Of a DNA stretch of 64,000 nt, positions 7,788 to 55,526 are shown piece after piece. Under the pieces are notes generated by a model. It worked only from the letters and a program-made list of their open reading frames with translations, was not told the DNA's origin and searched no databases. The DNA is taken from contig JAHEYN010000011.1 of assembly GCA_023251555.1 (NCBI GenBank), positions 1,503 to 65,502 of the forward strand, given 5' to 3'. Within the stretch, counting starts at the first letter, position 1. Each line of letters begins with the position of its first letter. The DNA comes from Bacteroidota bacterium. Its GTDB lineage: Bacteria > Bacteroidota > Bacteroidia > AKYH767-A > JAHEYN01. A program made the translations under genes and the position numbers.

Positions 7788-8338
7788 TGTTTCTGTTGTT
7801 GTTTTAATAAATTAAAATTATAACCAATACCTATGTCAGCATATTCAGCTATTCCCCCCGAATCATTAATTCCTCCAAATTGACCACCTATTCCTACACG
7901 TGCATGAAAATTTATTCTATTCCTCGTCATAATGCCAATTGTTGGAAATATATAACTAACATCTTCATAGAGTTTCGGGGTATTTCTGTAGCGATACAAG
8001 TAAATGATACTGAAGACAATTGGTATTTTAGTAAAATGTACATTTATGTCTAAGTTATAATATTGAAGCTGATCCAAAACTCCCCCATAATCCGAATTAT
8101 TATCTACTGCAAAAGATAATTCCGCAGATATATTTTTATTAAATTGATACCTCGTACCCATTGAAAATGCAAGCTGCGTAAGCCCCACAAAAATGTTATA
8201 CCTATACAATGGAGGATCTAACCAATTTTCTTTTTTTGCATTCGAACTTTTACTATAATCAATCACACCTGTATTTTGAGCATAGCTATACACCATAGTA
8301 TAAATAAGAAATGTGATAATTAAAATTATTTTTAACAT
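7784..8338 (-). CDS. Small predicted outer-membrane beta-barrel protein, a distant member of the island-2 barrel family
   Basis: I prefer the internal ATG, which gives the signal peptide MLKIILIITFLIYTMVYSYAQ. It has alternating-hydrophobic strands, and FSMGTRYQFNKNISAELS resembles FTFGYERIINKNISINLL of ORF 54786-55517. Its stop overlaps the start of the PLC-like gene by 4 nt. Confidence 0.5.
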   Translation of the reverse strand: MLKIILIITFLIYTMVYSYAQNTGVIDYSKSSNAKKENWLDPPLYRYNIFVGLTQLAFSMGTRYQFNKNISAELSFAVDNNSDYGGVLDQLQYYNLDINVHFTKIPIVFSIIYLYRYRNTPKLYEDVSYIFPTIGIMTRNRINFHARVGIGGQFGGINDSGGIAEYADIGIGYNFNLLKQQQKQ

Positions 8339-8460
8339 TATATTTTTTACCGATACAGAGTCGGGCGGCTGTGCCATTACCACAAATGGAATGAATAATA
8401 ATAAACAAGAACACTTTGAAATGCTTTTAGACAATATCATGATAAACATTACAATATTTT

Positions 8461-9696
8461 TTATTTTCCTTGAAGTTCCGTTACTTCTTTTTTAAGCATT
8501 TCCATTTCTACTTTCTGTTTCTGAATAAGTTTAGCCTGTTCTTCAACCAATTTTTGCAAGTCAATAATATCTAATGTGTTTTCTTCTATATTTTGCACAA
8601 TGCCTTTCATCGTTTCACTTGTTTTAATTCCGGAAGTTTCTATTTCCTTTGCAGATGCAATAAATGGCAGGTGATGATTATTGTTTAAATAAAGGAGTTT
8701 TTCCTTCCAATGCATACGATTATAATTTTTTTCAAAAACAAAATCAGACCAATTAGAAGCGTCAATTATTATTTCTTTGGATTTTATGGTGCCGTAAACA
8801 GCTAATTTAATTCCGCTTTTTGGTGTAGTTCCTATAGCCATATTCCCATTTTGCTCTATTGTAACAGCGTCTGGAGCGTTGAACACACCTATTCTGACCC
8901 CATCACCAAAAGTGCTGCTTATATAATTATAAGTATCTCCCAAATATAAATAAGATTGTTGTCCATTTGCCATAAAGTTTTGCGGTCCTTTTATTAAAAT
9001 ATTTCCATAATTAACCTGAAATTTTTCATCTGTTGAAGTAGGGGTGCCACCAATTAAAACTTTTCCAAAATATTGGTTAAATATTGTGTTGCCTGTGTAA
9101 CCTATGGGAAAAGGATCAGGAGGTAGTTGATTCTGAATGTTCAAATCAAAATTATTAGAAGGGTTAGGGAACGATGCTTTAGCACTACTCACATACATTG
9201 AATTTCTGTGTCCGTCAATAACTATAGAGCTGTCACCCAAATGAATCAAACTATCTCCTGGAAGAGCGGTGATTCTGCTTACTCTTATTTTAGCTACTTG
9301 CAAACTATCAAAAGTAGTTTTTCCTGAAACATGCAGGCAAGCGGTAGAAATGCAACTGGTGAAAAGATTGCCTGTTACAGTAAGGTCGCTGTCAACAGTG
9401 GCAAATCCCCTGAGATGAGTATTTCCCTGAACATCCAAAGGGACAAGAGGGGAGATTAATCCTATACCTAAATGACCGCCTACAGTGAGGTTGCTGTCTA
9501 TAACAGCACTTCCCTGAAGATTTAACTTACCTAATATCTGCAAAGCATAAGCAGGATTACTCAGACCGATGCCTACCGAACGCATGGTGTATACTTTGTT
9601 ATTTCCATTAGCTTGCCATAAGCTTTGTCCGTAGCTTGATATGTTTAGTAAAAGCATTGTTCCTGATGCTAAAGAGAGCACAATTAGTCTTTTCAT
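8461..9696 (-). CDS. Secreted tail-fibre/beta-helix-like protein with a C-terminal coiled coil
   Basis: Signal peptide. It has repeated DSNLTVGG / DSDLTVTGN units, and the C-terminus reads NWSDFVFEKNYNRMHWKEKLLYLNNNHHLPFIASAKEIE followed by heptad-rich LQKLVEEQAKLIQKQKVEMEMLKKEV. Confidence 0.5.
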   Translation of the reverse strand: MKRLIVLSLASGTMLLLNISSYGQSLWQANGNNKVYTMRSVGIGLSNPAYALQILGKLNLQGSAVIDSNLTVGGHLGIGLISPLVPLDVQGNTHLRGFATVDSDLTVTGNLFTSCISTACLHVSGKTTFDSLQVAKIRVSRITALPGDSLIHLGDSSIVIDGHRNSMYVSSAKASFPNPSNNFDLNIQNQLPPDPFPIGYTGNTIFNQYFGKVLIGGTPTSTDEKFQVNYGNILIKGPQNFMANGQQSYLYLGDTYNYISSTFGDGVRIGVFNAPDAVTIEQNGNMAIGTTPKSGIKLAVYGTIKSKEIIIDASNWSDFVFEKNYNRMHWKEKLLYLNNNHHLPFIASAKEIETSGIKTSETMKGIVQNIEENTLDIIDLQKLVEEQAKLIQKQKVEMEMLKKEVTELQGK

Positions 9697-9789
9697 GTTT
9701 CTGAATTTTTAATGGTTATTTTTTTTAAGTTTTCGTTTGACTTTTTTTCTTTTTCCTCCTTTCCCCTTTGTGGAGAGAAGCGGTGGGGC

Positions 9790-11700
9790 TTATTGACAAT
9801 TTGCAGGCGCACAAAGCGTGTTGAGATTAACAACATTAATTTTGAATGATTGGGTTACAGGACAACCGTTTGCATCGGTAACTCTCACTGTATAATCAGT
9901 TGTAGTGCCAGGACTTGCTATGGGACTTTGACAAAAGAAACAGGAAAGTCCTGTTGCCGGAGTCCACTGATAGGTGTATGTGCCGCTGATGCTCGGTGTG
10001 GCTGTGAGTGTTACCTGCTGAGCTCCGAAACCTGTGTAAATAGTATTCGGGCTTCCGTAAGGTGTGATGGTTGGTGAAGGAGTAACGCTGAGAGCAACAC
10101 TAAAGCACAAATCATTTTTTAGCACCGAAACAGATTGACCGGTCCAGTTGGCGGTAACAATATCCCCGTCCCCGTCATTGTCAACATCTGCTACATATAC
10201 GGCAATGGGCTGGGAGCCATTGGCATTAAAGTCCCTTCTTTCTAAAAATGTCCCATCGCCTGCATTTAATGATACTGACACGGAGCGGAACCCATACACG
10301 GTTCCTCCATAGTGATTGGCAGTGATAACATCGGGTTTCCCATCTCCGTTCACATCGCTTATAAATATTCCCACAGGCAAACCGTTTGTCGGGTAGCTGG
10401 TTTGCTGAGAAAAAATTCCCGTACCGTCATTTTTATATACTGTGAATGTCCCTGAGTTTTGATTGGCAACAACAACATCCCCATCCTCGTCTCCATCCAA
10501 GTCGCTCACAAAAACATCATCTGGATAGTTTCCTGTGGAATAATAGACAGGCGCCTGAAATTCTCCTTCTCCGTTATTGAGGGAGGTAAACATCTGGTTG
10601 TCAAAATTGCTTGCTCCCACGATGTCCATATCGCCATCCCGGTCAATGTCATAGAGATAAAGACCGAATACTCCGCTACCGGTAAAAAAATAACCGGCCG
10701 GTGTGCCGAATGTTCCGTTTCCACTATTAATCAGCACGCTGACAGGTGAAGGAGCCCCATGAAAGCGGGAAACAACAATGTCCCCGAATCCGTCTCCATC
10801 CAGGTCGGCAATTCGTATTCTTGCAAATGCAGTGGCAGGTACTATTCCTCCTGCCTGGTATATAACAGGAGAACCGAAAGTTCCTGTACCATTATTCATA
10901 AGTATAGAGATGGTATTGCTGCATGAGTTGATTACGGCAAGGTCCAGGTCTCCGTCATTATCAACATCATAAGGATAAACATCAAAGGGTGTTATGCAAC
11001 CGGATGTTGCATCGGTAATATAATTTACTTTGGGAGCAAATGTTCCGTTGCCGTTATTCATCAGTACGGAAATCGTATTTGATGTGCCTCCCAATTGTAC
11101 GGAACTGTTAGCGGCAATAATGTCTCCGTATCCGTCTCCGTTCAAATCACTCACCGTTACTCCGATAGGACCAATGCCTGCACTATAATTTACTCCTTTG
11201 TCAAACAAGCCTGGAGAGGGGTCATACAATATGGTGAATTGAGAAGAGAAAGGATGAACAGTATCATTGATCGCATCAATGATACCTTCCGTAACATTCA
11301 CTCTTACCACTTCTCCTTTTTTGAAAGAAACAGCGGGTGTGAAATTCAATTGTGTGTTTCCTCCCGGGAAAGAAAATGTTCCTGTATGTTTTCCGCTTAC
11401 TTCTCCCGTTACGATGAAAGAAGTATTGCTGACAGTTGCTGGGTTAACAGCATGATCAAAGGTTACCGTTATTGTTGTTGCAGGATTTATATTGAGAGCA
11501 CCCTGCGATGGCGAGATGCCTGCCACATGGGTGTTTCCGTATTGATAAGCGGTAACAGGAACTGCATAGTTATTTGAGATGGTAAGGGGAGCAGCCGGAA
11601 TCTTCGTGCTGTCTAATGCCAAAAGTGAATCTTGCGCGAATGAACCCAAACTGATGAAAAGAAAAACAACAATTGTGAAAAGTAGTTTTGGTTGTTTCAT
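9790..11700 (-). CDS. FG-GAP/VCBS (integrin-alpha-like) repeat protein, secreted
   Basis: Signal peptide, with many DLNGDGYGDI / DVDNDGDLDLAV / DIDRDGDMDIV / DVNGDGKPDV calcium-binding repeat cores. Confidence 0.8.
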   Translation of the reverse strand: MKQPKLLFTIVVFLFISLGSFAQDSLLALDSTKIPAAPLTISNNYAVPVTAYQYGNTHVAGISPSQGALNINPATTITVTFDHAVNPATVSNTSFIVTGEVSGKHTGTFSFPGGNTQLNFTPAVSFKKGEVVRVNVTEGIIDAINDTVHPFSSQFTILYDPSPGLFDKGVNYSAGIGPIGVTVSDLNGDGYGDIIAANSSVQLGGTSNTISVLMNNGNGTFAPKVNYITDATSGCITPFDVYPYDVDNDGDLDLAVINSCSNTISILMNNGTGTFGSPVIYQAGGIVPATAFARIRIADLDGDGFGDIVVSRFHGAPSPVSVLINSGNGTFGTPAGYFFTGSGVFGLYLYDIDRDGDMDIVGASNFDNQMFTSLNNGEGEFQAPVYYSTGNYPDDVFVSDLDGDEDGDVVVANQNSGTFTVYKNDGTGIFSQQTSYPTNGLPVGIFISDVNGDGKPDVITANHYGGTVYGFRSVSVSLNAGDGTFLERRDFNANGSQPIAVYVADVDNDGDGDIVTANWTGQSVSVLKNDLCFSVALSVTPSPTITPYGSPNTIYTGFGAQQVTLTATPSISGTYTYQWTPATGLSCFFCQSPIASPGTTTDYTVRVTDANGCPVTQSFKINVVNLNTLCAPANCQ

Positions 11701-16634: not shown

Positions 16635-16648
16635 ATGACACACGTCAT
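16635..16648 (+). promoter_or_regulatory. ATGAC-N4-GTCAT palindrome, a candidate CRP/FNR-family operator upstream of regulator 1
   Basis: ATGACACACGTCAT, with 22 nt to the TTACTTTG -7-like box at 16671-16678. The second copy has the same geometry. Confidence 0.55.
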
Positions 16649-16695
16649 CATTTTGCCCTGCTTCAACCCATTACTTTGTGCTGAAATCACAACCC

Positions 16696-17415
16696 ATGAA
16701 AACACTTTCCAGAAAGCCTGATATTCCCCCATGCGAGGCATGCGACGGGTTGTCAACATCCATCTTTTGTGTTCTTACAAAACCTGAGCTCTCGCATCTT
16801 TCGGAAAATAAAACATTTAATCTGTATAAAAAGGGACAGGTTATTTTCTACGAAGGAAATATGCCCCAGGGTATTTACTGCATCCACTCCGGGAAGGTGA
16901 AGATTCACAAGATGGGAGATGACGGAAAGATGCAGATTGTAAGGCTGGCAAAGAAAAATAATATCATCGGGTACAGGGCCTTGCTGAGCGGGGAGAACTA
17001 TAATGCCACAGCCACTGCTATTGAGGATACCCTCGTATGTTTCTTCCCCAAAAATATTTACCTGAATCTGCTGGCGGGCAATCCCCGTTTCTCCATGAGC
17101 ACCATACAGATGCTTTCAACGGATTTGAAAGTTGCCGAGCATATGATTACCAACATGGCACAGAAGCAGGTTCGCGAAAGAATGGCAGAGGCGCTTTTGC
17201 TGCTGAAAGAGTTTTTCGGGCTCGAAGAAGACGGAGCTACAATAAATACTGTTCTTACGAGAGAGGATATAGGAAACCTGGCTGGAACCACTACGGAAAC
17301 CTCCATACGCGTTTTGTCGGATTTTAACAAGAGCAGGATTGTGAAACTGATGGGGAAGAAGATCAGGATACTGAATCTTAAGGAACTGATAAAAATAGCA
17401 AACCTCTCGGAATAA
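16696..17415 (+). CDS. FNR-type Crp/Fnr family transcriptional regulator (4-Cys)
   Basis: It has cNMP-binding and HTH architecture. The N-terminal C-x2-C-x9-C (PPCEACDGLSTSIFC) plus TLVCFFP parallels E. coli FNR C20/C23/C29/C122 (SMVCEIP). The HTH reads GNLAGTTTETSIRVL. Confidence 0.8.
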   Translation: MKTLSRKPDIPPCEACDGLSTSIFCVLTKPELSHLSENKTFNLYKKGQVIFYEGNMPQGIYCIHSGKVKIHKMGDDGKMQIVRLAKKNNIIGYRALLSGENYNATATAIEDTLVCFFPKNIYLNLLAGNPRFSMSTIQMLSTDLKVAEHMITNMAQKQVRERMAEALLLLKEFFGLEEDGATINTVLTREDIGNLAGTTTETSIRVLSDFNKSRIVKLMGKKIRILNLKELIKIANLSE

Positions 17416-17438: not shown

Positions 17439-17452
17439 ATGACTCAGGTCAT
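17439..17452 (+). promoter_or_regulatory. ATGAC-N4-GTCAT palindrome, a candidate CRP/FNR-family operator upstream of regulator 2
   Basis: ATGACTCAGGTCAT, with 22 nt to the TACTTTTG box (TAnnTTTG) at 17475-17482, 38 nt upstream of ATG 17520. Confidence 0.55.
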
Positions 17453-17519: not shown

Positions 17520-18254
17520 ATGAGTACCATAAGAAATAACGATGAAAAAAGCACCAGGAAAAGTTGCACAGAGTGCAGGTTCCACGATTTCAGTGTTTTT
17601 AAAAACTGCCCGCCCGGAGTTCTTGAAGATGCTTTTTCAAACAGGAGCATGAGAAGTTATGCAAAGGGAGATGTGCTGATGTCACAGGGGGATGCTTTTT
17701 CGGGGGTCTATTGTATCCAGGAGGGTATGGTGAAGGTTACGCGGATTGGGAATAAAAACAAGGAATTCATTCTCTGGTTCGCGCACCCCGGCGATATTAT
17801 CGGCATGGACTCCTTTATGAGCAATGACTCATATTCTTTTTCCTCTACGGCGCTTGAGCCGGTTTCAGCATGCTTCATCCCTGCTTCTGACTTTAAAAAT
17901 CTTCTCACCCGCGATCCCCTTCTCAGCATAGGCCTTATGAAAGATATGTGCGATAAGATTAACTTTATTGAAGAGAGGATTACTAGCATAGCAAGAAAAA
18001 AAATCAAGGAACATTTTGCCGAGATGCTGATATCCCTTGCCGTAAAGAACAAGAAACTGCCGGGAGGAGATATACCGGTTAACTGTTCTGTTAAAGATCT
18101 TGCTGATATTATAGGTACCACCAAGCATTATCTTTATAAGATACTCTCGGATTTTTCCGATAAGAAAGTTATTTCCGTCCGTAACAGGAAGCTTGTTATC
18201 CGCAATATGGACAAGCTTTCAATGATTGCGGTGGGTGATGAACCGCTCGTATGA
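17520..18254 (+). CDS. Second FNR-type Crp/Fnr family regulator (4-Cys, different recognition helix)
   Basis: Has CTECRFHDFSVFKNC (C-x2-C-x11-C) plus VSACFIP. The HTH reads ADIIGTTKHYLYKILSDF. Confidence 0.8.
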   Translation: MSTIRNNDEKSTRKSCTECRFHDFSVFKNCPPGVLEDAFSNRSMRSYAKGDVLMSQGDAFSGVYCIQEGMVKVTRIGNKNKEFILWFAHPGDIIGMDSFMSNDSYSFSSTALEPVSACFIPASDFKNLLTRDPLLSIGLMKDMCDKINFIEERITSIARKKIKEHFAEMLISLAVKNKKLPGGDIPVNCSVKDLADIIGTTKHYLYKILSDFSDKKVISVRNRKLVIRNMDKLSMIAVGDEPLV

Positions 18255-18276
18255 TAACCTCTTAAGTTTTTCCCGT

Positions 18277-18702
18277 ATGCCCCTGTTCCTGAAGCGGTTT
18301 TTGTTCTGGTCTTTGTGTTTGATTTTTCTTGTTTATACCTTTTACCTTTATACTTCTTCAACTTCTGCAGACAGGGGTCTTGCGTTTCTCGATGAAAAGG
18401 CAAAAGCCGGTAAGCTGCTTTTCCAGAAATATAATTGCACTGCGTGCCACCAGGTTTACGGCCTGGGCGGATACATGGGTCCTGACCTTACGAATGTTAT
18501 TTCTGCGAAGGGCAAAGGCCCTGGCTATGCAAAGGCATTTCTGCTGAGCGGAACTGCCCGCATGCCGAATTTTCACCTTTCTTCAGAGGAGATAGATAAT
18601 ATCATCGCATACCTGGGTTATGTGGATAAAACAGGCGTTTCGCCGATCATTGACTTTAAATTAAATGCCGATGGAACAGTCTCGGCAGGAGAGAGGAAAT
18701 GA
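18277..18702 (+). CDS. Membrane-anchored monoheme cytochrome c (NorC-like partner subunit)
   Basis: N-terminal TM helix FLFWSLCLIFLVYTFYLY, a single CTACH heme motif, GPDLTNV, and ARMPNF as the distal Met candidate. The start is uncertain (18226 TTG, 18238 or 18277). The stop overlaps the next ATG (ATGA). Confidence 0.75.
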   Translation: MPLFLKRFLFWSLCLIFLVYTFYLYTSSTSADRGLAFLDEKAKAGKLLFQKYNCTACHQVYGLGGYMGPDLTNVISAKGKGPGYAKAFLLSGTARMPNFHLSSEEIDNIIAYLGYVDKTGVSPIIDFKLNADGTVSAGERK

Positions 18703-20036
18703 AAAAGGATACAGGGATATTGTTTGTATTTCTTGCCCTTCTTGCTTTGGGAAGCGGGATGTTTTTCGGGAGCCTCGCGGCACTGCAGTTTATCATTCCA
18801 GGCTTTTCAGACTGGATTCCTTTTTTTAAAACAAGGCCTCTTCATGTGTCTCTTGTTGTTGCATGGATATTTCTTGCTTCGGTGGGAGGAATTTACCATT
18901 ACCTTCCTGCCTTCTGTAATCTCTCACTCCGGTATCCGTCACTCCCTAAAACCCATTTCCGGATATTTTTTATAACCGGACTGCTGGTTTTGGCATGTTA
19001 TTTTATGGGGTATTTTGGGGGAAGGGAGTATTGGGAGTTTCCTCCACTGCTGGCACTACCCATACTTGCATCATGGATGCTGTTCGGATTTAATTATGCC
19101 GGGACAGTTTTGGAAAAGAAAAATACATGGCCCGTATATCTCTGGATGTGGGGAACAGGAATAATATTTTTCTTCTTTACATTCTCGGAAGCATACCTCT
19201 GGCTGTTTCCTTATTTCAGGAACAGCATAGTGCGTGATCTCAGCATTCAATGGAAAGCATACGGGGCACTGGTAGGTTCATGGAATATGCTGGTATACGG
19301 AACCGCAGTTTTCCTGATGGAAAAGATAAAGGGAGATACAAAGGTGGCTTATTCAACGCAGGCATATCTGATGTACTTTCTGGGATTGTTTAACCTGATG
19401 TTCGGCTGGGCTCATCATATTTATATCCTCCCTGTTGCCCCATGGGTGAGGATATTGTCCTATGCCGTGAGTATGACAGAGCTTATCATTCTTGCTAAAA
19501 TTATCCGTAACTGGAGATCGTCTTTTTCGCGGGGAAGCCGCGTCCGTGATTCACTTTCATACCGCTTTCTTTATGCATCTGATGTGTGGATTTTTCTGAA
19601 TCTCATCCTGGCACTTGCCATATCGGTTCCCGCAGTCAATATATACACCCACGGGACGCATGTTACCGTGGCTCATGCCATGGGAAGTACAATAGGTATT
19701 AATACCATGATACTGCTGGCCTCATGCTTTTTTATCATAGAGAGCATGCCGGAAAAATCAAACAATCGCAGCGCCGGGAAAATAATGAAGGCAGGAGTTG
19801 TTTTATTTAATCTCTCTCTCTTTGTCTTTTGGACATCTCTCATTTTTGCAGGTGTCTCAAAAGGAGTGATGGTCGTGGAGGGAAAGTTGTCTTTCAGGGA
19901 AATGATGGATAAGATTAATCCTTTTCTTATTACATTTGCGGTCTCGGGAATATCAATGTTTGTGTCGGTGCTGATGATAATAATTCCTGTCATTCCTTCA
20001 CTGGGTCGTTACATTGCAAAGCGCACTTCGTTATGA
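18699..20036 (+). CDS. Divergent heme-copper oxidase superfamily subunit I, NorB/cbb3-like, with 12 predicted TM helices
   Basis: KTRPLHVSLVVAW matches the helix II His region. GWAHHIY matches the HH pair. NIYTHGTHVTVAHAMG aligns to P. aeruginosa NorB NYYTHGTQLTAAHGHM. The helix VI His and the second helix X His are absent. Confidence 0.75.
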   Translation: MKKDTGILFVFLALLALGSGMFFGSLAALQFIIPGFSDWIPFFKTRPLHVSLVVAWIFLASVGGIYHYLPAFCNLSLRYPSLPKTHFRIFFITGLLVLACYFMGYFGGREYWEFPPLLALPILASWMLFGFNYAGTVLEKKNTWPVYLWMWGTGIIFFFFTFSEAYLWLFPYFRNSIVRDLSIQWKAYGALVGSWNMLVYGTAVFLMEKIKGDTKVAYSTQAYLMYFLGLFNLMFGWAHHIYILPVAPWVRILSYAVSMTELIILAKIIRNWRSSFSRGSRVRDSLSYRFLYASDVWIFLNLILALAISVPAVNIYTHGTHVTVAHAMGSTIGINTMILLASCFFIIESMPEKSNNRSAGKIMKAGVVLFNLSLFVFWTSLIFAGVSKGVMVVEGKLSFREMMDKINPFLITFAVSGISMFVSVLMIIIPVIPSLGRYIAKRTSL

Positions 20037-20111: not shown

Positions 20112-20597
20112 ATGAGAAAACAACACACACACACGCTCCTTGCCATGTCAGCCATGGCTGTTGCCGCCTTCTTCTGCGGATGCGGTGGAAACAGCAACGA
20201 AACTCCTGCCTCTTCCGGGGGAGAGCAGAAAACCGAAGCAGCTCCTTCCGGGACTGCTGCACAGGCTGTTCCTGCAAGCGGAGAAGATGTTTACAAGAAG
20301 ACATGTCAGACCTGCCACCAGGCAAACGGGGAAGGGATGCCGGCCACGTTTCCGCCTCTCGCCAAATCAGATTTCCTGTCCGATAAATCAAAAACTATCC
20401 GGCAGGTGCTGAACGGTTCCAGCGGGGAGATTACGGTTAATGGCCAGAAATTTAACGGTACTATGCCTCCCCAGGGAAGTACCCTTTCCGACAATGATAT
20501 TGCTGCTGTACTCACTTATGTATACAGCTCATGGGGCAACACCGCCGCCACTGTCACTGCGGAAGAGGTTAAGGCCGAACGCGAAAAAACAAAATAA
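20112..20597 (+). CDS. Class I c-type cytochrome, probable lipoprotein
   Basis: The AAFFCGCGG segment looks like a lipobox. It has the CQTCH heme motif and NGTMPP as the Met ligand region. Confidence 0.85.
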   Translation: MRKQHTHTLLAMSAMAVAAFFCGCGGNSNETPASSGGEQKTEAAPSGTAAQAVPASGEDVYKKTCQTCHQANGEGMPATFPPLAKSDFLSDKSKTIRQVLNGSSGEITVNGQKFNGTMPPQGSTLSDNDIAAVLTYVYSSWGNTAATVTAEEVKAEREKTK

Positions 20598-20607
20598 CAG
20601 CAGGCGC

Positions 20608-21810
20608 ATGAAAGAGGAAAAAGTTTTTTTTGGCGATACGCTGAAGGCTTTTGCCTCCAGAAACGATAAAGAGCTGAAGCACCTGCTTTGGCTCTTTAAG
20701 CTCATGGGCAACCCATCCCTGGTGAAACTTTTATCCAGACTTGCGGTTTTTTCGATTAAAGCGGGTCTCCCCGTTTCTGCTCCAATCAAAGCTACGATCT
20801 TCAGGCAGTTCTGCGGGGGGGAATCCATTGAAGAAAGTGTCCCGGTAGTGAAAAAACTCGGTAGCAGGAAGGTCGGGTCTATCCTCGATTATTCCGTGGA
20901 GGGAAAAGAAAGAGAAGAGGATTTTGAGAGAACTAAAGATGAGGTGATAAAGATTATTCATCTTGCAAAGAACAATCCCGCAATTCCATATACCAGTCTT
21001 AAGCTTACAGGGATTGCTCCGTTCTCACTTCTTGAAAAGATAAGCGCGCATGCAGAACTTTCCGAAGCGGAAGATACGGCATTTTCAAAGCTGAAGCACC
21101 GGCTTGCCGACGTATGCTATAATGCTTATGTAAATAATGTCCCCGTTTATTTTGATGCTGAAGAGAGCTGGATACAGCCTGCAATTGACCGCCTTGCCGA
21201 GGAGATGATGGCGGAGTATAACCAGAAAAAATCCATTGTCCTTACTACGCTCCAGATGTACCGCCGGGACAGGCTTTCGTATCTTAAAGAACTTATTGTG
21301 AAGGGCAGGGAGAAGAAATTTTTTGTCGGGATAAAATTAGTGCGGGGAGCATACTGGGAAAAAGAGAATGAAAGATCTGCCCGTATGGGGCTTCCCTCTC
21401 CCGTGCATGAGCGTAAGGAAGATACCGACAGGGATTTTAATGAAGCACTTGATACCTGTCTGCGTAATATTGATCTTATTACACTGTGCGCCGGTACTCA
21501 CAATGAGGCCAGCACTATGCACCTCCTGGATAAAATGAAGGAGATGGGAATTGCCAACGATCACCCGCACGTATACTTTTCACAGCTTTACGGTATGAGC
21601 GATCATATTACATTTAACCTTGCAGATGCAGGATACAATGTTACCAAGTATCTCCCTTACGGCCCCGTGAAATCAGTGGTGCCTTACCTGATAAGGAGAG
21701 CTGAAGAAAACACCGCCATAGCAGGCCAGATGGGAAGGGAACTTTCGCTTATACTGGCAGAGAAAAAAAGACGGCAGCATGAAAAGCTGCTCCCGCCAGG
21801 GGTTGCCTGA
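20608..21810 (+). CDS. Proline dehydrogenase (monofunctional)
   Basis: Taken from the internal ATG, MKEEKVFFGDTLKAFA. Has LKLTGI..., VYFDAEESW, KLVRGAYWEKE and YLIRRAEENT, which are typical ProDH motifs. The track's upstream extension overlaps the cytochrome gene. Confidence 0.85.
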   Translation: MKEEKVFFGDTLKAFASRNDKELKHLLWLFKLMGNPSLVKLLSRLAVFSIKAGLPVSAPIKATIFRQFCGGESIEESVPVVKKLGSRKVGSILDYSVEGKEREEDFERTKDEVIKIIHLAKNNPAIPYTSLKLTGIAPFSLLEKISAHAELSEAEDTAFSKLKHRLADVCYNAYVNNVPVYFDAEESWIQPAIDRLAEEMMAEYNQKKSIVLTTLQMYRRDRLSYLKELIVKGREKKFFVGIKLVRGAYWEKENERSARMGLPSPVHERKEDTDRDFNEALDTCLRNIDLITLCAGTHNEASTMHLLDKMKEMGIANDHPHVYFSQLYGMSDHITFNLADAGYNVTKYLPYGPVKSVVPYLIRRAEENTAIAGQMGRELSLILAEKKRRQHEKLLPPGVA

Positions 21811-22055: not shown

Positions 22056-24644
22056 ATGCTGACTGCTGAGATGACGAAGAAGGCCGTAAAAGCTGCAAAG
22101 CCGGCGGGTACATCACCCCGAACTTATTCTTATAAGGAAGTTTACGACGAGTCTGTTTCCTACTTTCAGGGCGATGAACTTGCCGCATCCACCTGGATGA
22201 ACAAGTATGCCATGAAGGATAAAAACGGAAAATTTCTGGAACTTTCACCCGATGACATGCATATGCGTATGGCTGCCGAATTTGGAAGGAAAGAAATGGA
22301 ATACCGGGATATGGCCGTGGCCCCGAACCGGAAACTTCTTTCAAAATACGGGCAGAAAAGAGATTTTCTCACCGAAGAAAAGATTTATGACCTGTTCAGG
22401 GATTTCGCCCGTGTAATTCCTCAGGGAAGTGTGATGTCTTCCCTCGGAAACCCTTATGTTATCGCTTCTTTGTCCAACTGCATTGTGCTTCCTGAGATTT
22501 ATGATTCATACGGCGGGATATTTTACACCGACCAGCAAATGGCGCAGCTCTTTAAGCGCAGGTGCGGGGTGGGAGTGGATATCTCTTCCCTGCGCCCTTC
22601 GGGTACTTTTGTGTCCAATGCCGCCGGCTCTACCACGGGTGCAGTTTCTTTTATGGAACGATTCTCGAATACCACCCGGGAGGTGGCTCAGAACGGTAGA
22701 AGAGGCGCCCTGATGATTACTATGGATGTAGCCCATCCTGATATAGAATCCTTTGTAACCATTAAGCAGGACCTCTCCCGCATTACGGGAGCCAATATTT
22801 CCGTAAGAATTTCTGATGAATTCATGAATGCCGTCGCAGCCGACCAGGATTTTACGCATCGTTTTCCCATAAATTCTCCCAATCCTTCCTTTACCAGAAA
22901 AGTAAAAGCAAGGGAGCTGTGGAACACTATTATAAAATGTGCCCACCATACCGCTGAGCCGGGGATTATTTTCTGGGACAGGCAACATCATTATTCTACA
23001 TCCTCTGTATATCCCGGCTTCAGAAATGTTTCCACCAACCCATGCTCTGAAATTGCGATGCAGGGAGGCGACAGTTGCAGGCTTATTGCCCTGAATCTCT
23101 TTGGCTTCGTCGACAACCCATTTACTCCCAGGGCTAAATTCAACTACAGGAAGTTTTATGAAACCACTTACGAATCCCAGCGCCTGATGGACGATCTTGT
23201 GGACCTCGAACTGGAGGCCATAGAACGTATTCTTGCCAAGGTGGCAAAAGATCCCGAACCGGATTATATTAAGGAAGTTGAAGTGAATACATGGAAGCTG
23301 CTTTATGAAGCGGGAAAAAAGGGCAGGAGGACAGGCCTCGGATTCACAGCTCTCGGCGATGCCCTGGCTGCTCTTGGCTTTGGGTTTGATTCCCCTGAGG
23401 CCCTCGCTGAAGTGGGAAAAATAATGAAGTCAAAATGTGAGGCTGAGTTTGACAGTTCCGTGGATATGGCTGTAGAAAGAGGAAAGTTTGAAGCCTTCGA
23501 CCCGGCTGTGGAAAATACTTCCGAATTTGTGAAGATGATGAAAGAAGAATTCCCCCAGCTGTACCAGCGCATGATGAAAAACGGCAGGAGAAATATTTCT
23601 GTCAGTACGGTGGCTCCTACAGGTACACTGAGTCTCCTTGCGCGTTCTTCCTCCGGGATAGAGCCGGTATTTATGCTCTCATATAAAAGAAGAAGAAAGG
23701 TGAATCCGAACGATAAAAACGTCAAGATTGATTTTGTTGACCACATGGGCGACTCATGGCAGGAATTTACGGTTTATCATCCCAGGGTGAAGATGTGGAT
23801 GGATATTACCGGGGAAAGTGATATTACAAGATCCCCCTACCACGGTTCTACAGCCTCGGAGATTGACTGGAAAAAAAGAGTGGAGATGCAGTCGGTGGTG
23901 CAGAAGTACACTACCCACTCCATCAGTTCAACTATTAATCTCCCTGCAGAAGCTACACCTGAAAACGTGGCAGGTATTTACCTTGAAGCGTGGAAGAAAG
24001 GCCTGAAAGGAATAACGGTTTACCGCGATGGTTCCAGAACAGGCGTTCTTGTTTCAACGGATAATAAGGGAAAGAAATCGGATGAGATTGTGGAAACTAC
24101 CGCGCCAAAACGTCCCAAAGTTCTTGAAGCAGAGATCGTTCGCTTTATGAACCACAATGAAAAGTGGATTGCAGTTGTCGGACTGCTCAACGGAAAGCCC
24201 TATGAGGTTTTCACAGGTAAGGCGGAAGATGCATTCATCATCCCCGGCTGGGCTGAAAAGGGATGGGTCATCAAAAGTTCGAGGGAAGACGGAGCCAAGC
24301 GTTATGACTTTCAATACATGGATAAAGAAGGTTACCGTATTACCATCGAAGGTCTTTCAAGATCATTCAATAAGGAATACTGGAACTATGCCAAGCTTAT
24401 TTCAGGGGTGCTTCGCCATGGAATGCCCCTGCCCCACGTTGTGAACCTGATATCAGACCTTCATCTTTATAATGATAACATTAACACATGGAAAGTGGGC
24501 GTAGAGAGGGCTTTGAAAAAATTCATTCCCGACGGGACTCATGCTGTTGACCGGAAATGTTCAGGCTGCGGAGACCCGCAGGGCCTGATTTACGAAGAAG
24601 GATGCCTCAAATGTAAAAGCTGCGGGCACTCAAAATGCGGTTGA
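22056..24644 (+). CDS. nrdJ: Adenosylcobalamin-dependent (class II) ribonucleotide reductase
   Basis: 862 aa. Has STNPCSEI (the active-site Cys), GGIGVDIS-like CGVGVDISSLRP, and a C-terminal Cys-rich tail CSGCGDPQGLIYEEGCLKCKSCGHSKCG. Confidence 0.88.
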   Translation: MLTAEMTKKAVKAAKPAGTSPRTYSYKEVYDESVSYFQGDELAASTWMNKYAMKDKNGKFLELSPDDMHMRMAAEFGRKEMEYRDMAVAPNRKLLSKYGQKRDFLTEEKIYDLFRDFARVIPQGSVMSSLGNPYVIASLSNCIVLPEIYDSYGGIFYTDQQMAQLFKRRCGVGVDISSLRPSGTFVSNAAGSTTGAVSFMERFSNTTREVAQNGRRGALMITMDVAHPDIESFVTIKQDLSRITGANISVRISDEFMNAVAADQDFTHRFPINSPNPSFTRKVKARELWNTIIKCAHHTAEPGIIFWDRQHHYSTSSVYPGFRNVSTNPCSEIAMQGGDSCRLIALNLFGFVDNPFTPRAKFNYRKFYETTYESQRLMDDLVDLELEAIERILAKVAKDPEPDYIKEVEVNTWKLLYEAGKKGRRTGLGFTALGDALAALGFGFDSPEALAEVGKIMKSKCEAEFDSSVDMAVERGKFEAFDPAVENTSEFVKMMKEEFPQLYQRMMKNGRRNISVSTVAPTGTLSLLARSSSGIEPVFMLSYKRRRKVNPNDKNVKIDFVDHMGDSWQEFTVYHPRVKMWMDITGESDITRSPYHGSTASEIDWKKRVEMQSVVQKYTTHSISSTINLPAEATPENVAGIYLEAWKKGLKGITVYRDGSRTGVLVSTDNKGKKSDEIVETTAPKRPKVLEAEIVRFMNHNEKWIAVVGLLNGKPYEVFTGKAEDAFIIPGWAEKGWVIKSSREDGAKRYDFQYMDKEGYRITIEGLSRSFNKEYWNYAKLISGVLRHGMPLPHVVNLISDLHLYNDNINTWKVGVERALKKFIPDGTHAVDRKCSGCGDPQGLIYEEGCLKCKSCGHSKCG

Positions 24645-29696: not shown

Positions 29697-30068
29697 TTAC
29701 CTTTTCCAGTACCATCCCTCTTTCCCGGGCTCCTGGTTCCAGTACTCTGTAGTCATCACATCACCTTCGGGCGTCTTCAGTCTTCGCTCGTAGATTGCGA
29801 GCATGGGATGGAAGAGGACATCGGTTACGCCGATAATAAGTTTTTCGGGAGCCGCAGGAGATGAAGTCTGGACGGGAGTTTCCGCATCTGGTTTGGGTAC
29901 CGCGGCTTTGGGAGGAGGCATGGGTGCCGATTGCACCTTGTAACCGTTGTGTTCCAGTACTTTTTTCAGAAATTCAGCCCGCTCAGGGGATGCATCTTTT
30001 TCTGCAATGGCACACCGTACCCCGTTTATTTCTTCTATGGCATGCGCTTCTTTGTTCAGGCGGTTCAT
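29697..30068 (-). CDS. Hypothetical 123-aa protein with a Pro-rich linker, immediately downstream of nuoN
   Basis: An ORF with ATG at 30068 (MNRLNKEAHAIEE...) and no recognisable motif. Its start region overlaps the 3' end of nuoN (30065) by 4 nt. Confidence 0.45.
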   Translation of the reverse strand: MNRLNKEAHAIEEINGVRCAIAEKDASPERAEFLKKVLEHNGYKVQSAPMPPPKAAVPKPDAETPVQTSSPAAPEKLIIGVTDVLFHPMLAIYERRLKTPEGDVMTTEYWNQEPGKEGWYWKR

Positions 30069-31480
30069 ATTCCGGAGCTTAAGGATAAGATATAATGATA
30101 GATTGCGCTGTAAAACCCTGTGGCAAGAACGCCTGCTGCACAAATGGTCATCACCAGCCCTGCACTCAGGGAATATTCGATTTTTTCCGAAGAGTCTCCC
30201 TTGTCAACAAACATTGCCTTTACAATACGGAGATAGTAAAAGAGAGAGAAGATCATGTTTAAGCAGGCAATAACAACCAGGCTTGTCATCCCCGTGGCAG
30301 AGGCAGAAGCAAGAAGGAAAAATTTTCCGAAAAAGCCAGCCGTTGGCGGTATTCCTGCCAGCGAAAAAACGCCTAACAGCATAACAAGGCCCAGCAGGGG
30401 ATTGCTGTGATAAAGGCCTTTGTAGCCGTCAATATTTTCTTTTCCTGTTTTTTCAGAAACGACCGATACAACCGTGAAGGCTGCGATGTTGGAAAAAATA
30501 TAAACCAGTATAAAATAAATAACGGAAGCCATAGACTGTTGTGTGCCTGCAGCAACACCGGCCAGGAGGTACCCGGCCTGGGTGATGGAGGAGAATGCAA
30601 GAAAGCGCTTGATGTTCTGCTGCCGCATGGCAAAGAAGTTACCGAGTGTCATGGTAGCAGCAGAAAGAACCGACAGAAGTACCTTCCAGTGTTCATGAAT
30701 ACCCCCGAACACCTTATAAAGGACAGTCACGAAAATAAATACTGCAGCTCCTTTTGAAACAACCGACATGAATGTTGTTACAGGCACAGGCGCTCCTTCA
30801 TAAACATCGGCGGTCCAGAAATGAAAAGGAACAACGGATATTTTAAATGCAAACCCGGCTATGAGAAAAGCAAACCCCAGCAGCGGAAGCGGCGCCGGGT
30901 TGAAGGAAGCGGCCATCTCACTGAACCTCAGGGAACCGCATGCCCCGTAAAGTAAGGAAAGGCCGAAGAGCAGTATAGCCGAGGAAAAAGCAGACGACAG
31001 GATCATTTTGACTGCCGCTTCCCCTGAACGGCCTTTCTCAAAGTCAAACCCTGCGAGGGCCGCAAGGGGGATTGTGGCCATCTCCAGCCCGAGGTAGAAC
31101 ATGAGAAAATGCCCGGAAGAGATCATCAGCTGCATCCCGATCAGAACCGAGAGAAGCAGGAAATAAAACTCGTGGTAATTATTGCTGTCCCTTTTCAGCC
31201 GGTCGTTTGCCTGCATTGAAATCAGGAGGGTTGCGAAGGCAAGCAGTGATTTTTCGAATAAGATAACCTTTCCTGAAATAAACATATCTCCGAATAAGCT
31301 TCCTTCCGAAGGCATCACTAAGCCGGAAACAGCGATGATGAAAAGAGTGGCATTGACCAGGAAGATTATTCCGGAAGGTCTTTTGTTCCCATAAAATATT
31401 CTTGCGGTAAAAAGTGATACCAGCAGCAGCAGGGTGAGCAGCTCGAAGCGCATCATAAGTATATAGTCTGCGATTCTCAT
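30065..31480 (-). CDS. nuoN: NADH-quinone oxidoreductase subunit N
   Basis: Polytopic antiporter-like subunit with FYLGLEMATIPL. It takes the last position in the operon order. Confidence 0.88.
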   Translation of the reverse strand: MRIADYILMMRFELLTLLLLVSLFTARIFYGNKRPSGIIFLVNATLFIIAVSGLVMPSEGSLFGDMFISGKVILFEKSLLAFATLLISMQANDRLKRDSNNYHEFYFLLLSVLIGMQLMISSGHFLMFYLGLEMATIPLAALAGFDFEKGRSGEAAVKMILSSAFSSAILLFGLSLLYGACGSLRFSEMAASFNPAPLPLLGFAFLIAGFAFKISVVPFHFWTADVYEGAPVPVTTFMSVVSKGAAVFIFVTVLYKVFGGIHEHWKVLLSVLSAATMTLGNFFAMRQQNIKRFLAFSSITQAGYLLAGVAAGTQQSMASVIYFILVYIFSNIAAFTVVSVVSEKTGKENIDGYKGLYHSNPLLGLVMLLGVFSLAGIPPTAGFFGKFFLLASASATGMTSLVVIACLNMIFSLFYYLRIVKAMFVDKGDSSEKIEYSLSAGLVMTICAAGVLATGFYSAIYHYILSLSSGI

Positions 31481-31482
31481 GG

Positions 31483-32970: not shown

Positions 32971-32972
32971 GA

Positions 32973-51695: not shown

Positions 51696-51741
51696 TTTTT
51701 CGTAGCTTTTTTATTCTGCAATAAGATGTACATGTTTTTTC

Positions 51742-52464: not shown

Positions 52465-52530
52465 GTCCTGTAAGCTTCCCTATTCATAGTGCCAATGGTT
52501 CAAAAGTATTTAATTGTTTTGCATAAATCA

Positions 52531-53844: not shown

Positions 53845-53851
53845 GATAAAA

Positions 53852-54208: not shown

Positions 54209-54238
54209 GTCTTTAAAATTTTCGGAGAAATATTTTTA

Positions 54239-54682: not shown

Positions 54683-54785
54683 TTTAATATATATTTATAA
54701 ACATAATCTTCTTCGCCCATAGTGTCAAAACCCTTGAGGCGGTGATAAGTTCTTTTCCATATCCAGTAGGTGTATGTTTTTTTTC
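54679..54785 (-). pseudogene. Start-less relic of the 955-aa gene's 3' end
   Basis: The minus strand reads KKTYTYWIWKRTYHRLKGFDTMGEEDYVYKYILK then TGA. It is wedged directly after the stop of barrel gene 54786-55517 in another frame, and no start codon precedes it. Confidence 0.7.
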
Positions 54786-55517: not shown

Positions 55518-55526
55518 CTTGACTAT

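What the first reader, a model, noticed from the sequence alone, without database searches (positions are those of the whole stretch)
18699..20036. The NorB-like heme-copper-oxidase subunit lacks two of the six canonical histidine ligands
Aligned by eye to P. aeruginosa NorB and to cbb3 CcoN, four ligand positions match.
- Helix II His is present (TRPLHVSLVV).
- The HH pair is present (GWAHHIY).
- The helix X proximal His is present, where NIYTHGTHVTVAHAMG aligns with NYYTHGTQLTAAHGHM.

Two positions do not match.
- The helix VI ligand region reads IQWKAYGALVGSWNML and has no His. The equivalents are NorB WWVVHLWVEG and CcoN WWYGHNAVGF. The region also lacks the NorB glutamates.
- The second helix X His, which ligates the low-spin heme, is Met (H-A-M instead of H-x-H).

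The protein has only 8 His in total. It is translationally coupled to a NorC-like membrane-anchored monoheme cytochrome c and is followed by a lipoprotein cytochrome c.

Inference: this is a divergent HCO/NOR-superfamily enzyme with a two-His non-heme site and possibly His/Met low-spin heme ligation. Its substrate (NO, O2 or something else) cannot be assigned from sequence.
Basis: partly seen in the sequence, partly recalled or inferred. Interest (0 to 1): 0.7.

Follow-up and report, generated by a model that had tools for sequence, protein, structure and literature searches.

The report
NorB-like reductase with remodelled active site
This gene encodes the catalytic subunit of a membrane respiratory enzyme related to bacterial nitric oxide reductase, in which two of the six normally invariant histidines are replaced in a fixed way across a large, never-characterised family; databases label that family as ordinary NO reductase or oxidase, so its real chemistry, possibly relevant to N2O budgets, is open.

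Summary
Profile alignments to solved NorB and CcoN put an invariant Gly (G189) at the helix VI His ligand. They put Met (M328) at the second helix X His, the low-spin heme ligand. The other four His are kept, and there is no cross-link Tyr.

An invariant Lys (K186) lies three residues before G189. The cNOR Glu280 equivalent (E261) is also invariant. Among 417 distinct relatives, 393 carry K/G/E/M. A sister clade carries H/D/A/M in strict covariation.

The cNOR Ca2+-site residues, most periplasmic proton-path residues and a true NorC partner are retained. The operon follows two FNR-type regulators, each preceded by a conserved palindrome. In related Bacteroidota the same operon abuts a nos cluster or Nar-like and molybdenum-cofactor genes.

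The family (at least 576 species genomes, in Bacteroidota and Woeseiaceae) forms its own lineage beside cNOR and cbb3. It is probably the cNOR-related family that Murali et al. 2024 list as a putative "N2O red". I could not prove that identity.

Most likely function: a low-oxygen-induced, cytochrome-c-dependent N-oxide reductase. NO is favoured as substrate and N2O remains possible.

The parts
16635..16648 (.). Palindrome ATGACACACGTCAT, about 30 bp upstream of the first Crp/Fnr gene. Candidate regulator box.
   Evidence: Only two matches in the 64 kb window, both exact and both in regulator promoters. The same box (up to 1 mismatch) is about 5-fold enriched in the 2.6 kb upstream of the HCO gene in the related loci with a usable HCO ORF, at conserved offsets.
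16678..17415 (+). Crp/Fnr-family regulator 1, with an FNR-like Cys pattern (C19, C22, C31, C121).
   Evidence: Pfam cNMP_binding plus HTH_Crp_2. Best NCBIfam hit is Fnr PRK11161 at 100 bits, below its cut-off. Cys positions.
17439..17452 (.). Second palindrome ATGACTCAGGTCAT, upstream of the second Crp/Fnr gene.
17520..18254 (+). Crp/Fnr-family regulator 2 (C16, C19, C30, C118). It abuts the cytochrome c gene.
   Evidence: A Crp/Fnr gene lies near the HCO gene in 27 of the 80 related loci, and in the window.
18238..18702 (+). NorC-like subunit: N-terminal TM helix, CTACH heme c motif (C71, C74, H75) and Met113 ligand. An alternative start is TTG at 18226.
   Evidence: phmmer to P. aeruginosa NorC 3o0r_C gives E = 9.8e-12 and covers the TM helix, CxxCH and the MPxFHLS Met motif. 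CxxCH and Met are invariant in 56 homologues. The gene lies directly upstream of the HCO gene in 55 of the 80 related loci, and in the window.
18699..20036 (+). HCO subunit I (NorB-like), 445 aa, 12 TM helices.
   Evidence: Pfam COX1, E = 6.5e-30. AF2 model with pLDDT 93.6 and pTM 0.93. Foldseek TM 0.85-0.87 to NorB and 0.85 to CcoN.
18843..18845 (+). H49 codon: low-spin heme b ligand (NorB H60).
   Evidence: Present in 416 of 417 sequences.
19023..19031 (+). R109-E110-Y111, equivalent to NorB R134-E135-F136. E135 is the cNOR Ca2+ ligand.
   Evidence: E110 in 409 of 417 and Y111 in 416 of 417. The role of E135 is from my knowledge of the cNOR structure (Hino et al. 2010).
19254..19256 (+). K186 codon: invariant Lys three residues before the lost His. 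Proposed replacement ligand or proton donor.
   Evidence: 58 of 58. K in 400 of 417 and H in 15, the latter in the sister clade. NorB and CcoN have Trp here.
19263..19265 (+). G189 codon: occupies the column of the helix VI FeB/CuB His (NorB/CcoN H207).
   Evidence: G in 400 of 417, D in 16, never His.
19284..19286 (+). N196 codon: replaces NorB E215.
   Evidence: 58 of 58 and 414 of 417.
19413..19418 (+). H239-H240 codons: the retained His pair (NorB H258/H259).
19479..19481 (+). E261 codon: equivalent to NorB E280. Invariant, and covaries with K186 and G189.
   Evidence: 58 of 58. E in 399 of 417; Ala in the H/D clade.
19674..19676 (+). H326 codon: proximal ligand of the high-spin heme b3 (NorB H347).
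19680..19682 (+). M328 codon: replaces the second low-spin heme ligand (NorB H349, CcoN H347).
   Evidence: M in 411 of 417, never His.
20112..20597 (+). Monoheme cytochrome c with a signal peptide and Cys (probable lipoprotein). Candidate electron donor.
   Evidence: Pfam Cytochrome_CBB3 and Cytochrom_C. N-terminus ...AAFFCGCGG. Same gene, in the same position, in L007, L011 and L020.
20608..21810 (+). Proline dehydrogenase, co-directional neighbour. Its link to the enzyme is unproven.
   Evidence: Pfam Pro_dh, E = 4e-75. The start follows the called gene in L081. Follows the HCO operon in 20 of the 80 related loci, and in the window.
22071..24644 (+). Ribonucleotide reductase large-subunit homologue, read as the O2-independent class II type. 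Co-directional neighbour.
   Evidence: Pfam Ribonuc_red_lgC. Present in 14 of the 80 related loci, and in the window. The class II assignment is my reading and was not tested.

Best explanation
The gene encodes the catalytic subunit of a two-subunit, NorCB-type membrane reductase. It belongs to a large, biochemically uncharacterised lineage beside cNOR and cbb3.

Shown:
- HCO fold.
- A genuine NorC partner that is translationally coupled.
- Retention of the His ligands for heme b (H49) and heme b3 (H326), and of the His pair H239/H240.
- Retention of the cNOR Ca2+-site residues (R109, E110) and of most cNOR periplasmic proton-path positions (D/E180, S258, E261, S309, N314, H318).
- Fixed replacement of H207 by Gly, loss of E211, E215 by Asn, and H349 by Met, plus a new invariant Lys186.

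Inferred mechanism:
- Electrons pass from periplasmic cytochrome c, perhaps the downstream lipoprotein cytochrome c, to the NorC-like heme c.
- They then pass to a His49/Met328 heme b of raised potential, and on to heme b3.
- The distal site is rebuilt from H239, H240 and E261 (a 2-His-1-carboxylate arrangement), with K186 as third-shell ligand or proton donor. K186 would reach into the space freed by G189.
- Protons come from the periplasm, so the enzyme is probably non-electrogenic like cNOR.

Expression is driven by the two adjacent FNR-type regulators under low O2, as part of a nitrate-respiration/denitrification regulon.

The substrate is a small N-oxide. I favour NO reduction to N2O (about 0.4 of the total probability), with N2O reduction as the main alternative.
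For: - Fold and homology.
- NorC partner. It is present in 55 of the 80 related loci and in the window.
- Ligand map and conserved cNOR infrastructure.
- Family-wide fixation and K/G/E versus H/D/A covariation in 417 sequences.
- No cross-link Tyr; Leu233 stands at the CcoN Y251 column.
- Separate lineage.
- Regulation: FNR-like Cys patterns and a conserved palindrome upstream of the regulator or HCO genes.
- Context in relatives: a complete nosZLDFY cluster directly upstream and co-directional in L019; Tat-type NarG-like genes in 6 loci, with NarH and NarI found in three of them; modABC in one; MoeA, MobA, ModE or MoeB in 12 more; Rrf2 regulators in 7; HemN in Woeseiaceae.
- A canonical NosZ next door (L019) makes a NOR role more economical than a second N2O reductase.
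- His/Met low-spin heme has a precedent in nNOR (PMC11214002).
Against: - No biochemical data exist for any member.
- I could not read coordinates of the AF2 model. The placement of K186 and E261 at the metal site rests only on helix geometry and covariation.
- Whether any non-heme metal binds is unknown.
- No nir, nor or nos gene lies in this 64 kb window.
- nos adjacency was seen in only one of 80 loci. The ProDH, RNR and NadB neighbours do not speak for N-oxide chemistry.
- The only published suggestion for the probable family is N2O reduction, not NO reduction.
- cNOR needs E211 and H207 for FeB, and both are gone.
Confidence: 0.55

Rival explanations
1. It is a heme-copper-type nitrous oxide reductase that reduces N2O to N2. 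This is the role Murali et al. 2024 propose for a cNOR-related HCO family, to explain the membrane-bound, sulfide- and acetylene-insensitive N2O reductase of Flexibacter (Solitalea) canadensis.
For: - PMC11214002 describes one new family 'closely related to cNOR' that lacks the active-site Tyr and has novel active-site features. It counts 293 GTDB genomes, and its rationale rests on a Bacteroidetes organism.
- The present family fits each of those descriptors.
- An invariant Lys and Glu in the pocket could polarise or protonate N2O.
- The carriers include Bacteroidota, a phylum rich in non-denitrifying N2O consumers (PMC11879220).
Against: - The proposal is untested.
- Identity of this family with theirs could not be verified: no supplement is held and no Solitalea homologue was retrieved.
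- L019 carries a full NosZ cluster immediately upstream of the same operon, which would make a second N2O reductase redundant there.
- The paper also states that the active-site His are conserved in all families except gNOR. That would not fit this family.
Confidence: 0.2
2. The distal site holds no metal. The enzyme uses heme b3 alone, with His239, His240, Lys186 and Glu261 as an acid-base pocket, for a different reaction such as NO dismutation, nitrite reduction or peroxide reduction.
For: - One His and both helix VI carboxylates of the cNOR metal site are lost.
- Gly at the ligand position creates a cavity.
- Two distal His plus a cationic residue resemble proton-donating pockets of heme nitrite reductases (my knowledge).
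- There is a precedent for ligand loss in NOD (PMC11214002).
Against: - The His pair and E261 are invariant and would make a classical 2-His-1-carboxylate site.
- The sister clade restores a third ligand (Asp) at exactly the lost position, and adds His at -3. That argues a metal is still bound in the lineage.
Confidence: 0.13
3. It is a cbb3-like high-affinity oxygen reductase, as the NCBI annotation of its relatives says.
For: - The NCBI name of many relatives is 'cbb3-type cytochrome c oxidase subunit I'.
- Control by FNR-type regulators is typical of cbb3 oxidases.
- Some relatives are fused to FixO-like plus dihaem cytochrome c domains.
Against: - TIGR00780 ccoN scores 40.6 bits against a cut-off of 583.
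- One CuB His ligand is absent, and Leu replaces the cross-link Tyr251.
- The partner subunit here is NorC, not CcoO/CcoP.
Confidence: 0.05
4. It is a decayed or non-catalytic homologue, a pseudo-enzyme or a purely structural or sensor protein.
For: Two canonical ligands are missing.
Against: - There is an intact ORF, translational coupling, and a high-confidence 12-TM model.
- The replacement residues and about 20 other pocket and channel residues are strictly conserved across 417 sequences, down to 26% identity, in several phyla.
Confidence: 0.03

Closest known systems
cNOR (NorCB), e.g. P. aeruginosa 3O0R and Roseobacter denitrificans 4XYD
   Same: - Best sequence and fold match: profile E = 5e-29, TM 0.85-0.87.
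- Two-subunit architecture with a true NorC homologue.
- Conserved equivalents of H60, H258, H259, H347, the Ca2+-site R134/E135, E280, T330 (as Ser), N335 and H339.
- D198 is kept as Asp or Glu; E138 is kept only in part (34 of 58).
- No cross-link Tyr.
   Different: - H207 becomes Gly, E211 is deleted, E215 becomes Asn and H349 becomes Met. W204 becomes an invariant Lys.
- About 19% identity, as far from cNOR as cNOR is from cbb3.
- A separate clade in 100/100 NJ replicates.
C-family (cbb3) oxygen reductase CcoN, e.g. 3MK7
   Same: - Fold TM 0.85.
- A shared helix VI 'VQW...VG' frame.
- FNR-type regulation.
- Some relatives carry FixO-like and dihaem cytochrome c modules.
   Different: - No CuB His207 and no Tyr251.
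- His/Met instead of bis-His heme b.
- A NorC partner instead of CcoO/CcoP in this window.
- The score is far below the ccoN model cut-off.
Putative 'N2O red' HCO family of Murali et al. 2024 (PMC11214002)
   Same: The paper describes it as a new family in the C/cNOR branch, lacking the Tyr, with unprecedented active-site features. It is rare in isolates, commoner in metagenomes, and linked to a Bacteroidetes organism. All of this is consistent with the present family.
   Different: Identity is unverified. The authors' alignment, HMM and leaf list are not available here, and the main text does not state the family's ligand set.
gNOR (B-family-derived)
   Same: One active-site His is replaced (by Asp). 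The sister clade found here also has Asp at the helix VI His position.
   Different: gNOR is related to the B family and has a cupredoxin-type subunit II. The present family is in the C/cNOR branch, has a NorC partner, and has Gly rather than Asp.
nNOR (B-family-derived)
   Same: The low-spin heme is predicted to be His/Met ligated.
   Different: nNOR keeps the cNOR-like FeB ligand set and has a CuA-type subunit II. It is an unrelated branch.
NOD (putative NO dismutase, qNOR-derived)
   Same: An NOR-derived enzyme with an altered non-heme site and a proposed new N-oxide chemistry.
   Different: NOD is a fused qNOR-type protein of about 800 aa, with no cytochrome c subunit and different substitutions.

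Membership tests
Heme-copper oxidoreductase superfamily (subunit I) | 12-TM COX1 fold | tested here: met
   Pfam PF00115, E = 6.5e-30, above the gathering score. AF2 pTM 0.93. Foldseek TM at or above 0.85 to NorB and CcoN.
Heme-copper oxidoreductase superfamily (subunit I) | Six canonical His: two for the low-spin heme, one for the high-spin heme and three for the CuB/FeB site | tested here: not met
   Four of the six are present. Gly189 and Met328 occupy the other two columns.
cNOR (NorCB) | Membrane-anchored monoheme NorC partner encoded upstream | tested here: met
   3o0r_C E = 9.8e-12, with the TM helix, CxxCH and Met motif aligned. ATGA overlap with the HCO gene.
cNOR (NorCB) | FeB ligands H207, H258, H259 and E211, with E215 nearby | tested here: not met
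   H207 is Gly, E211 is a gap and E215 is Asn. All three changes are invariant in 58 sequences.
cNOR (NorCB) | Ca2+ site and periplasmic proton-path residues (E135, E138, D198, S277, E280, T330) | tested here: met
   E110, S258, E261 and S309 are near-invariant. Position 180 is Asp or Glu (D 233, E 179 of 417). E113 is kept in 34 of 58. The roles of these residues are from the cNOR literature, not tested here.
cNOR (NorCB) | Groups phylogenetically within cNOR | tested here: not met
   The NJ tree separates the family plus sister clade from PaNorB and RdNorB in 100/100 replicates. Mean identity to cNOR is 19%. This is a crude test with only three outgroup sequences.
C-family cbb3 oxidase (CcoN) | Reaches the curated ccoN model score | tested here: not met
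   TIGR00780 scores 40.6 bits against a cut-off of 583.15.
C-family cbb3 oxidase (CcoN) | His207-Tyr251 cross-link pair | tested here: not met
   Gly189 and Leu233 occupy these columns.
'N2O red' HCO family (Murali et al. 2024) | Branch closely related to cNOR, within the C-family side of the tree | tested here: met
   The best PDB profile hits are cNOR, then cbb3, then qNOR. The family forms its own clade.
'N2O red' HCO family (Murali et al. 2024) | Lacks the active-site Tyr | tested here: met
   Leu233 stands at the Tyr251 column. No conserved alternative Tyr was seen near the His pair.
'N2O red' HCO family (Murali et al. 2024) | Match to the authors' family HMM or leaf set, and presence in Solitalea (Flexibacter) canadensis | not testable with these tools
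   No supplements are held. The single genome-contig scan returned only the 80 best loci, all of them MAGs. No isolate is named among the listed relatives.
gNOR / nNOR / eNOR / sNOR / bNOR | B-family relationship and a cupredoxin (CuA-type) subunit II | tested here: not met
   The partner is NorC-like cytochrome c. The nearest structures are cNOR and cbb3. ba3-type oxidases score far lower.

The most novel reading that the evidence does not exclude
The K186/G189/E261/M328 family is a heme-copper-superfamily enzyme whose non-heme site is built from two His, a Glu and a Lys, or holds no metal at all. It would catalyse something cNOR does not. The most attractive possibility is NosZ-independent, copper-independent reduction of N2O. 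If so, genes now counted as norB or ccoN in hundreds of Bacteroidota and Woeseiaceae genomes would be N2O sinks rather than sources.
Probability: 0.2. Interest if true: 0.85.

Novelty: new member of a known kind. Interest (0 to 1): 0.55.

Why it matters
Annotation pipelines call this family 'nitric oxide reductase subunit B' (JGI/KEGG style) or 'cbb3-type cytochrome c oxidase subunit I' (NCBI). Metagenomic inventories therefore count it either as an N2O source or as an oxidase.

It is abundant:
- more than 3,400 90%-identity clusters at E below 1e-5 in one search;
- at least 576 species-level genomes;
- large clades in sediment Woeseiaceae and in freshwater, soil and groundwater Bacteroidota.

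Its metal site differs from every characterised HCO. If it reduces NO, it shows that NO reduction tolerates loss of a 'universal' His and of the FeB glutamate. If it reduces N2O or does something else, N-cycle gene budgets need correction.

The strict K/G/E versus H/D/A covariation gives a ready-made mutagenesis design. The His/Met heme b gives a spectroscopic handle.

Tried and rejected
1. Alternative alignment registers that would put a His, or K186 itself, at the H207 column. Rejected: the ungapped anchors RD(-9), W(-4) and VG(+3/+4) agree between NorB, CcoN and the family.
2. A canonical FNR box, TTGAT-N4-ATCAA. No relevant match. An ATGAC-N4-GTCAT palindrome was found instead.
3. Tying the family to Solitalea canadensis or any cultured organism. 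All three homology searches (one a first survey, two aimed at isolates), one cluster look-up and one literature search found only MAG or metagenome sequences.
4. Supplementary data of Murali et al. 2024. Not held. The 2021 preprint and the FIND preprint add nothing on this family.
5. A link to the ODZ 'nod-like' genes of Alphaproteobacteria. Those are qNOR-type and unrelated.
6. Denitrification genes in the rest of the window. None were found. It is ordinary Bacteroidota chromosome with T9SS cargo, a TonB receptor, nuoLMN and PPIases.
7. The first AF2 model, from a shallow 23-sequence alignment, had low confidence exactly at the ligand helices. It was replaced by a 58-sequence model. Neither model's coordinates can be read, so no distances were measured.
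8. Regex scans for NosZ and NirK signatures in the 80 loci found a single NosZ, in L019.
Full report
**What is there**

The window carries a co-directional block:
- Crp/Fnr regulator, 16678-17415
- Crp/Fnr regulator, 17520-18254
- a 154-158 aa membrane-anchored monoheme cytochrome c, 18238-18702
- a 445-aa COX1-family protein, 18699-20036
- a 161-aa cytochrome c with a signal peptide and Cys, 20112-20597
- proline dehydrogenase, 20608-21810
- a ribonucleotide reductase homologue, read as class II, 22071-24644

The cytochrome c and COX1 genes overlap by ATGA. The rest of the window is ordinary Bacteroidota chromosome and holds no nir, nor or nos gene. It carries T9SS cargo, a TonB receptor and complex I subunits.

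**Checking the observation**

The protein has exactly 8 His. I aligned it to solved structures with phmmer and with a 58-sequence family profile. I also mapped it explicitly onto P. aeruginosa NorB numbering. That numbering was verified, because the rebuilt sequence gives H60, H207, H258, H259, H347 and H349. All three approaches agree:

| NorB residue | Window residue |
|---|---|
| H60 | H49 |
| H258/H259 | H239/H240 |
| H347 | H326 |
| H207 | G189 |
| E211 | gap |
| E215 | N196 |
| H349 | M328 |

The helix VI register is fixed by ungapped anchors shared with both NorB and CcoN: R-D nine residues upstream, W four residues upstream, and V-G three and four residues downstream. CcoN reads VQWWYGHNAVG where the family reads VQWKSYGALVG. 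Leu233 stands at the CcoN Tyr251 column. The first refutation condition, that a proper alignment restores the His, is not met.

**It is a family trait**

- One word-indexed search found 3,404 clusters at E below 1e-5.
- An exhaustive search of 50%-identity representatives found 447 hits, 272 of them at E below 1e-10. All full-length hits carry the same motifs.
- A scan of species-representative genomes found at least 576 carriers. The best 80 are Bacteroidota, Woeseiaceae and other Gammaproteobacteria, and a few Alphaproteobacteria.
- In 417 distinct full-length sequences, no sequence has His at position 189 or 328.
- Residues invariant down to 26% identity include H49, Y111, E164, K186, G189, N196, H239, H240, E261, S309, N314, H318 and H326.

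Lys186, three residues before the lost His, is invariant. NorB and CcoN have Trp there. Glu261, the equivalent of NorB Glu280, is invariant too.

A sister clade at 24-29% identity has His at the Lys position, Asp at the Gly position and Ala at the Glu position, and still has Met328. The two states covary almost perfectly: K/G/E/M in 393 sequences and H/D/A/M in 13.

I read this as two alternative solutions for a rebuilt distal site. The sister clade would use 2 His plus Asp (plus His), reminiscent of gNOR. The main family would use 2 His plus Glu261, with Lys186 reaching into the space freed by Gly189. This is inference from helix periodicity and covariation. I could not read model coordinates.

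**What is kept from cNOR**

- The small subunit is a true NorC homologue (E = 1e-11). The TM helix, CxxCH and the Met-ligand motif align, and they are invariant in 56 homologues.
- In the large subunit, the Ca2+-site residues R134/E135 and several cNOR periplasmic proton-path positions (S277, E280, T330 as Ser, N335, H339) are conserved. D198 is kept as Asp or Glu, and E138 in 34 of 58.
- The AF2 model from the 58-sequence alignment is confident (pLDDT 93.6, pTM 0.93). It superposes on NorB at TM 0.85-0.87 and on CcoN at 0.85.

The wiring for electrons and protons is thus cNOR-like. Only the first shell of the non-heme site and one heme b ligand were changed.

**Placement**

- NCBIfam's ccoN model scores 40.6 bits against a cut-off of 583.
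- Profile scores rank cNOR above cbb3 above qNOR.
- In a crude NJ tree with 100 bootstraps, the family (94) and its sister clade (100) are each monophyletic. Together they split from two NorB and one CcoN in 100/100 replicates.
- Mean identity is 19% to cNOR and 17% to CcoN. That is the same distance as between cNOR and CcoN (18%).

It is a separate family-level lineage in the C/NOR branch. The tree has few outgroups and cannot be rooted.

**Regulation and context**

- Both regulators have an FNR-like Cys pattern.
- Each is preceded by an exact ATGAC-N4-GTCAT palindrome. These are the only two matches in the window.
- In the related loci with a usable HCO ORF, the same box is about 5-fold enriched upstream of the enzyme gene, at conserved offsets. 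It also occurs as CTGACnnnnGTCAT about 200 bp upstream in Woeseiaceae.
- Across the 80 related loci, the only near-constant partner is the NorC-like gene, present in 55.
- Informative variable neighbours:
  - a complete nosZ-nosL-nosD-nosF-nosY cluster directly upstream and co-directional in L019;
  - Tat-type NarG-like genes in six loci, with NarH and NarI found in three of them, and modABC in one;
  - MoeA, MobA, ModE or MoeB in twelve more loci;
  - Rrf2 regulators in seven;
  - HemN and heme A synthase in Woeseiaceae;
  - FixO plus dihaem cytochrome c, either fused to the enzyme or encoded downstream of it, in other lineages.
- This places the operon in a low-oxygen, nitrate-respiration setting.
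- The neighbours ProDH, RNR, NadB and a tryptophanase-like lyase recur but are unexplained.

**Function**

Without the Tyr and one CuB His, an oxygen reductase is unlikely. With cNOR-type wiring, FNR-type control and nos/Nar neighbours, an N-oxide reductase is the best reading. I favour NO reduction, because a canonical NosZ cluster sits next to the same operon in L019 and nor-nos adjacency is common.

The only published idea for what is probably this family is N2O reduction. Murali et al. [quoted passage not shown] A metal-free pocket with other chemistry cannot be excluded. No member has been studied biochemically in any paper I could find.

**Known or new**

Murali et al. give no ligand set for their 'N2O red' family in the main text, and the supplements are not available here. 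I could not retrieve a Solitalea homologue, or any cultured carrier.

The descriptors match: the C/cNOR branch, no Tyr, novel active site, a Bacteroidetes link, and a few hundred genomes. I therefore put the probability of identity at about 0.7 and classify the window's gene as a new member of a known but uncharacterised kind. If the families differ, it would be a new variant.

His/Met ligation of the low-spin heme has a precedent in nNOR, and replacement of an active-site His has one in gNOR. Both of those are B-family derivatives. The combination found here in a cNOR-type scaffold, together with the Lys/Gly/Glu versus His/Asp/Ala covariation, is not described in the text I could read.

Noticed in passing
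window 16635-16648 and 17439-17452; related loci L004-L080 upstream of the enzyme gene: An exact ATGAC-N4-GTCAT palindrome sits in front of each of the two Crp/Fnr genes. It is conserved at the same offsets in Bacteroidota relatives, and occurs as CTGACnnnnGTCAT about 200 bp upstream in Woeseiaceae. It is a candidate operator for this regulon and differs from the classical FNR box.
   Followed up: partly
proteins P0225-P0270 (for example P0242; locus L082 513-1901): A sister clade of the family has His at the Lys186 column, Asp at the Gly189 (lost His) column and Ala at the Glu261 column. It keeps Met328 and an upstream cytochrome c gene. Its taxonomy and context are unknown, because only a 2.6 kb contig was seen.
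   Followed up: partly
P0136, P0144, P0157 (L083 906-3308); L059, L060, L067, L078 downstream ORFs of about 330 aa: In some lineages the enzyme is fused to a TM helix plus FixO-like and dihaem cytochrome c domains (three CxxCH motifs). In others it is followed by a separate ORF of about 330 aa that clusters with those fusion proteins; I did not annotate that ORF separately. An upstream NorC-like gene is seen in most of these loci.
   Followed up: partly
window 20608-21810 and 22071-24644; related loci: Several genes recur next to the operon in different lineages without an obvious mechanistic link: proline dehydrogenase (20 related loci plus the window), an RNR homologue read as class II (14 plus the window), L-aspartate oxidase (9), a tryptophanase/tyrosine phenol-lyase-like gene (5), and a 600-aa protein with no NCBIfam match (13).
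   Followed up: partly
L019 97-5868: A complete clade-II-style nos cluster (nosZ, nosL, nosD, nosF, nosY) lies immediately upstream of the fnr-fnr-norC-like-HCO operon, on the same strand, in a groundwater Bacteroidetes MAG.
   Followed up: yes
L005, L006, L007, L010 (for example L005 13942-15390): A 482-aa lipoprotein-like beta-propeller protein lies downstream of the RNR gene. It has weak similarity (33-39 bits, far below the cut-offs) to the hydrazine synthase beta subunit and to lactonase-type (clade III) NosZ models. It is absent from the window.
   Followed up: no
window 6001-10000 and 50001-56000: Two low-GC stretches (0.30-0.37, against about 0.46 elsewhere). They encode T9SS-sorted proteins, a DUF3575 protein and several proteins with no family match, including a 955-aa ORF at 55527-58394. 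They may be acquired surface or fimbrial gene islands.
   Followed up: no
window 20440-21810: The mechanical ORF for proline dehydrogenase starts at 20440, inside the preceding cytochrome c gene. The gene called on an identical public contig starts at 20608 (MKEEKV...), which removes the overlap.
   Followed up: yes
window 30065-34919 (- strand): Three consecutive large membrane proteins of 471, 495 and 648 aa. The first and third match Proton_antipo_M. They are most likely NuoN, NuoM and NuoL of complex I.
   Followed up: partly
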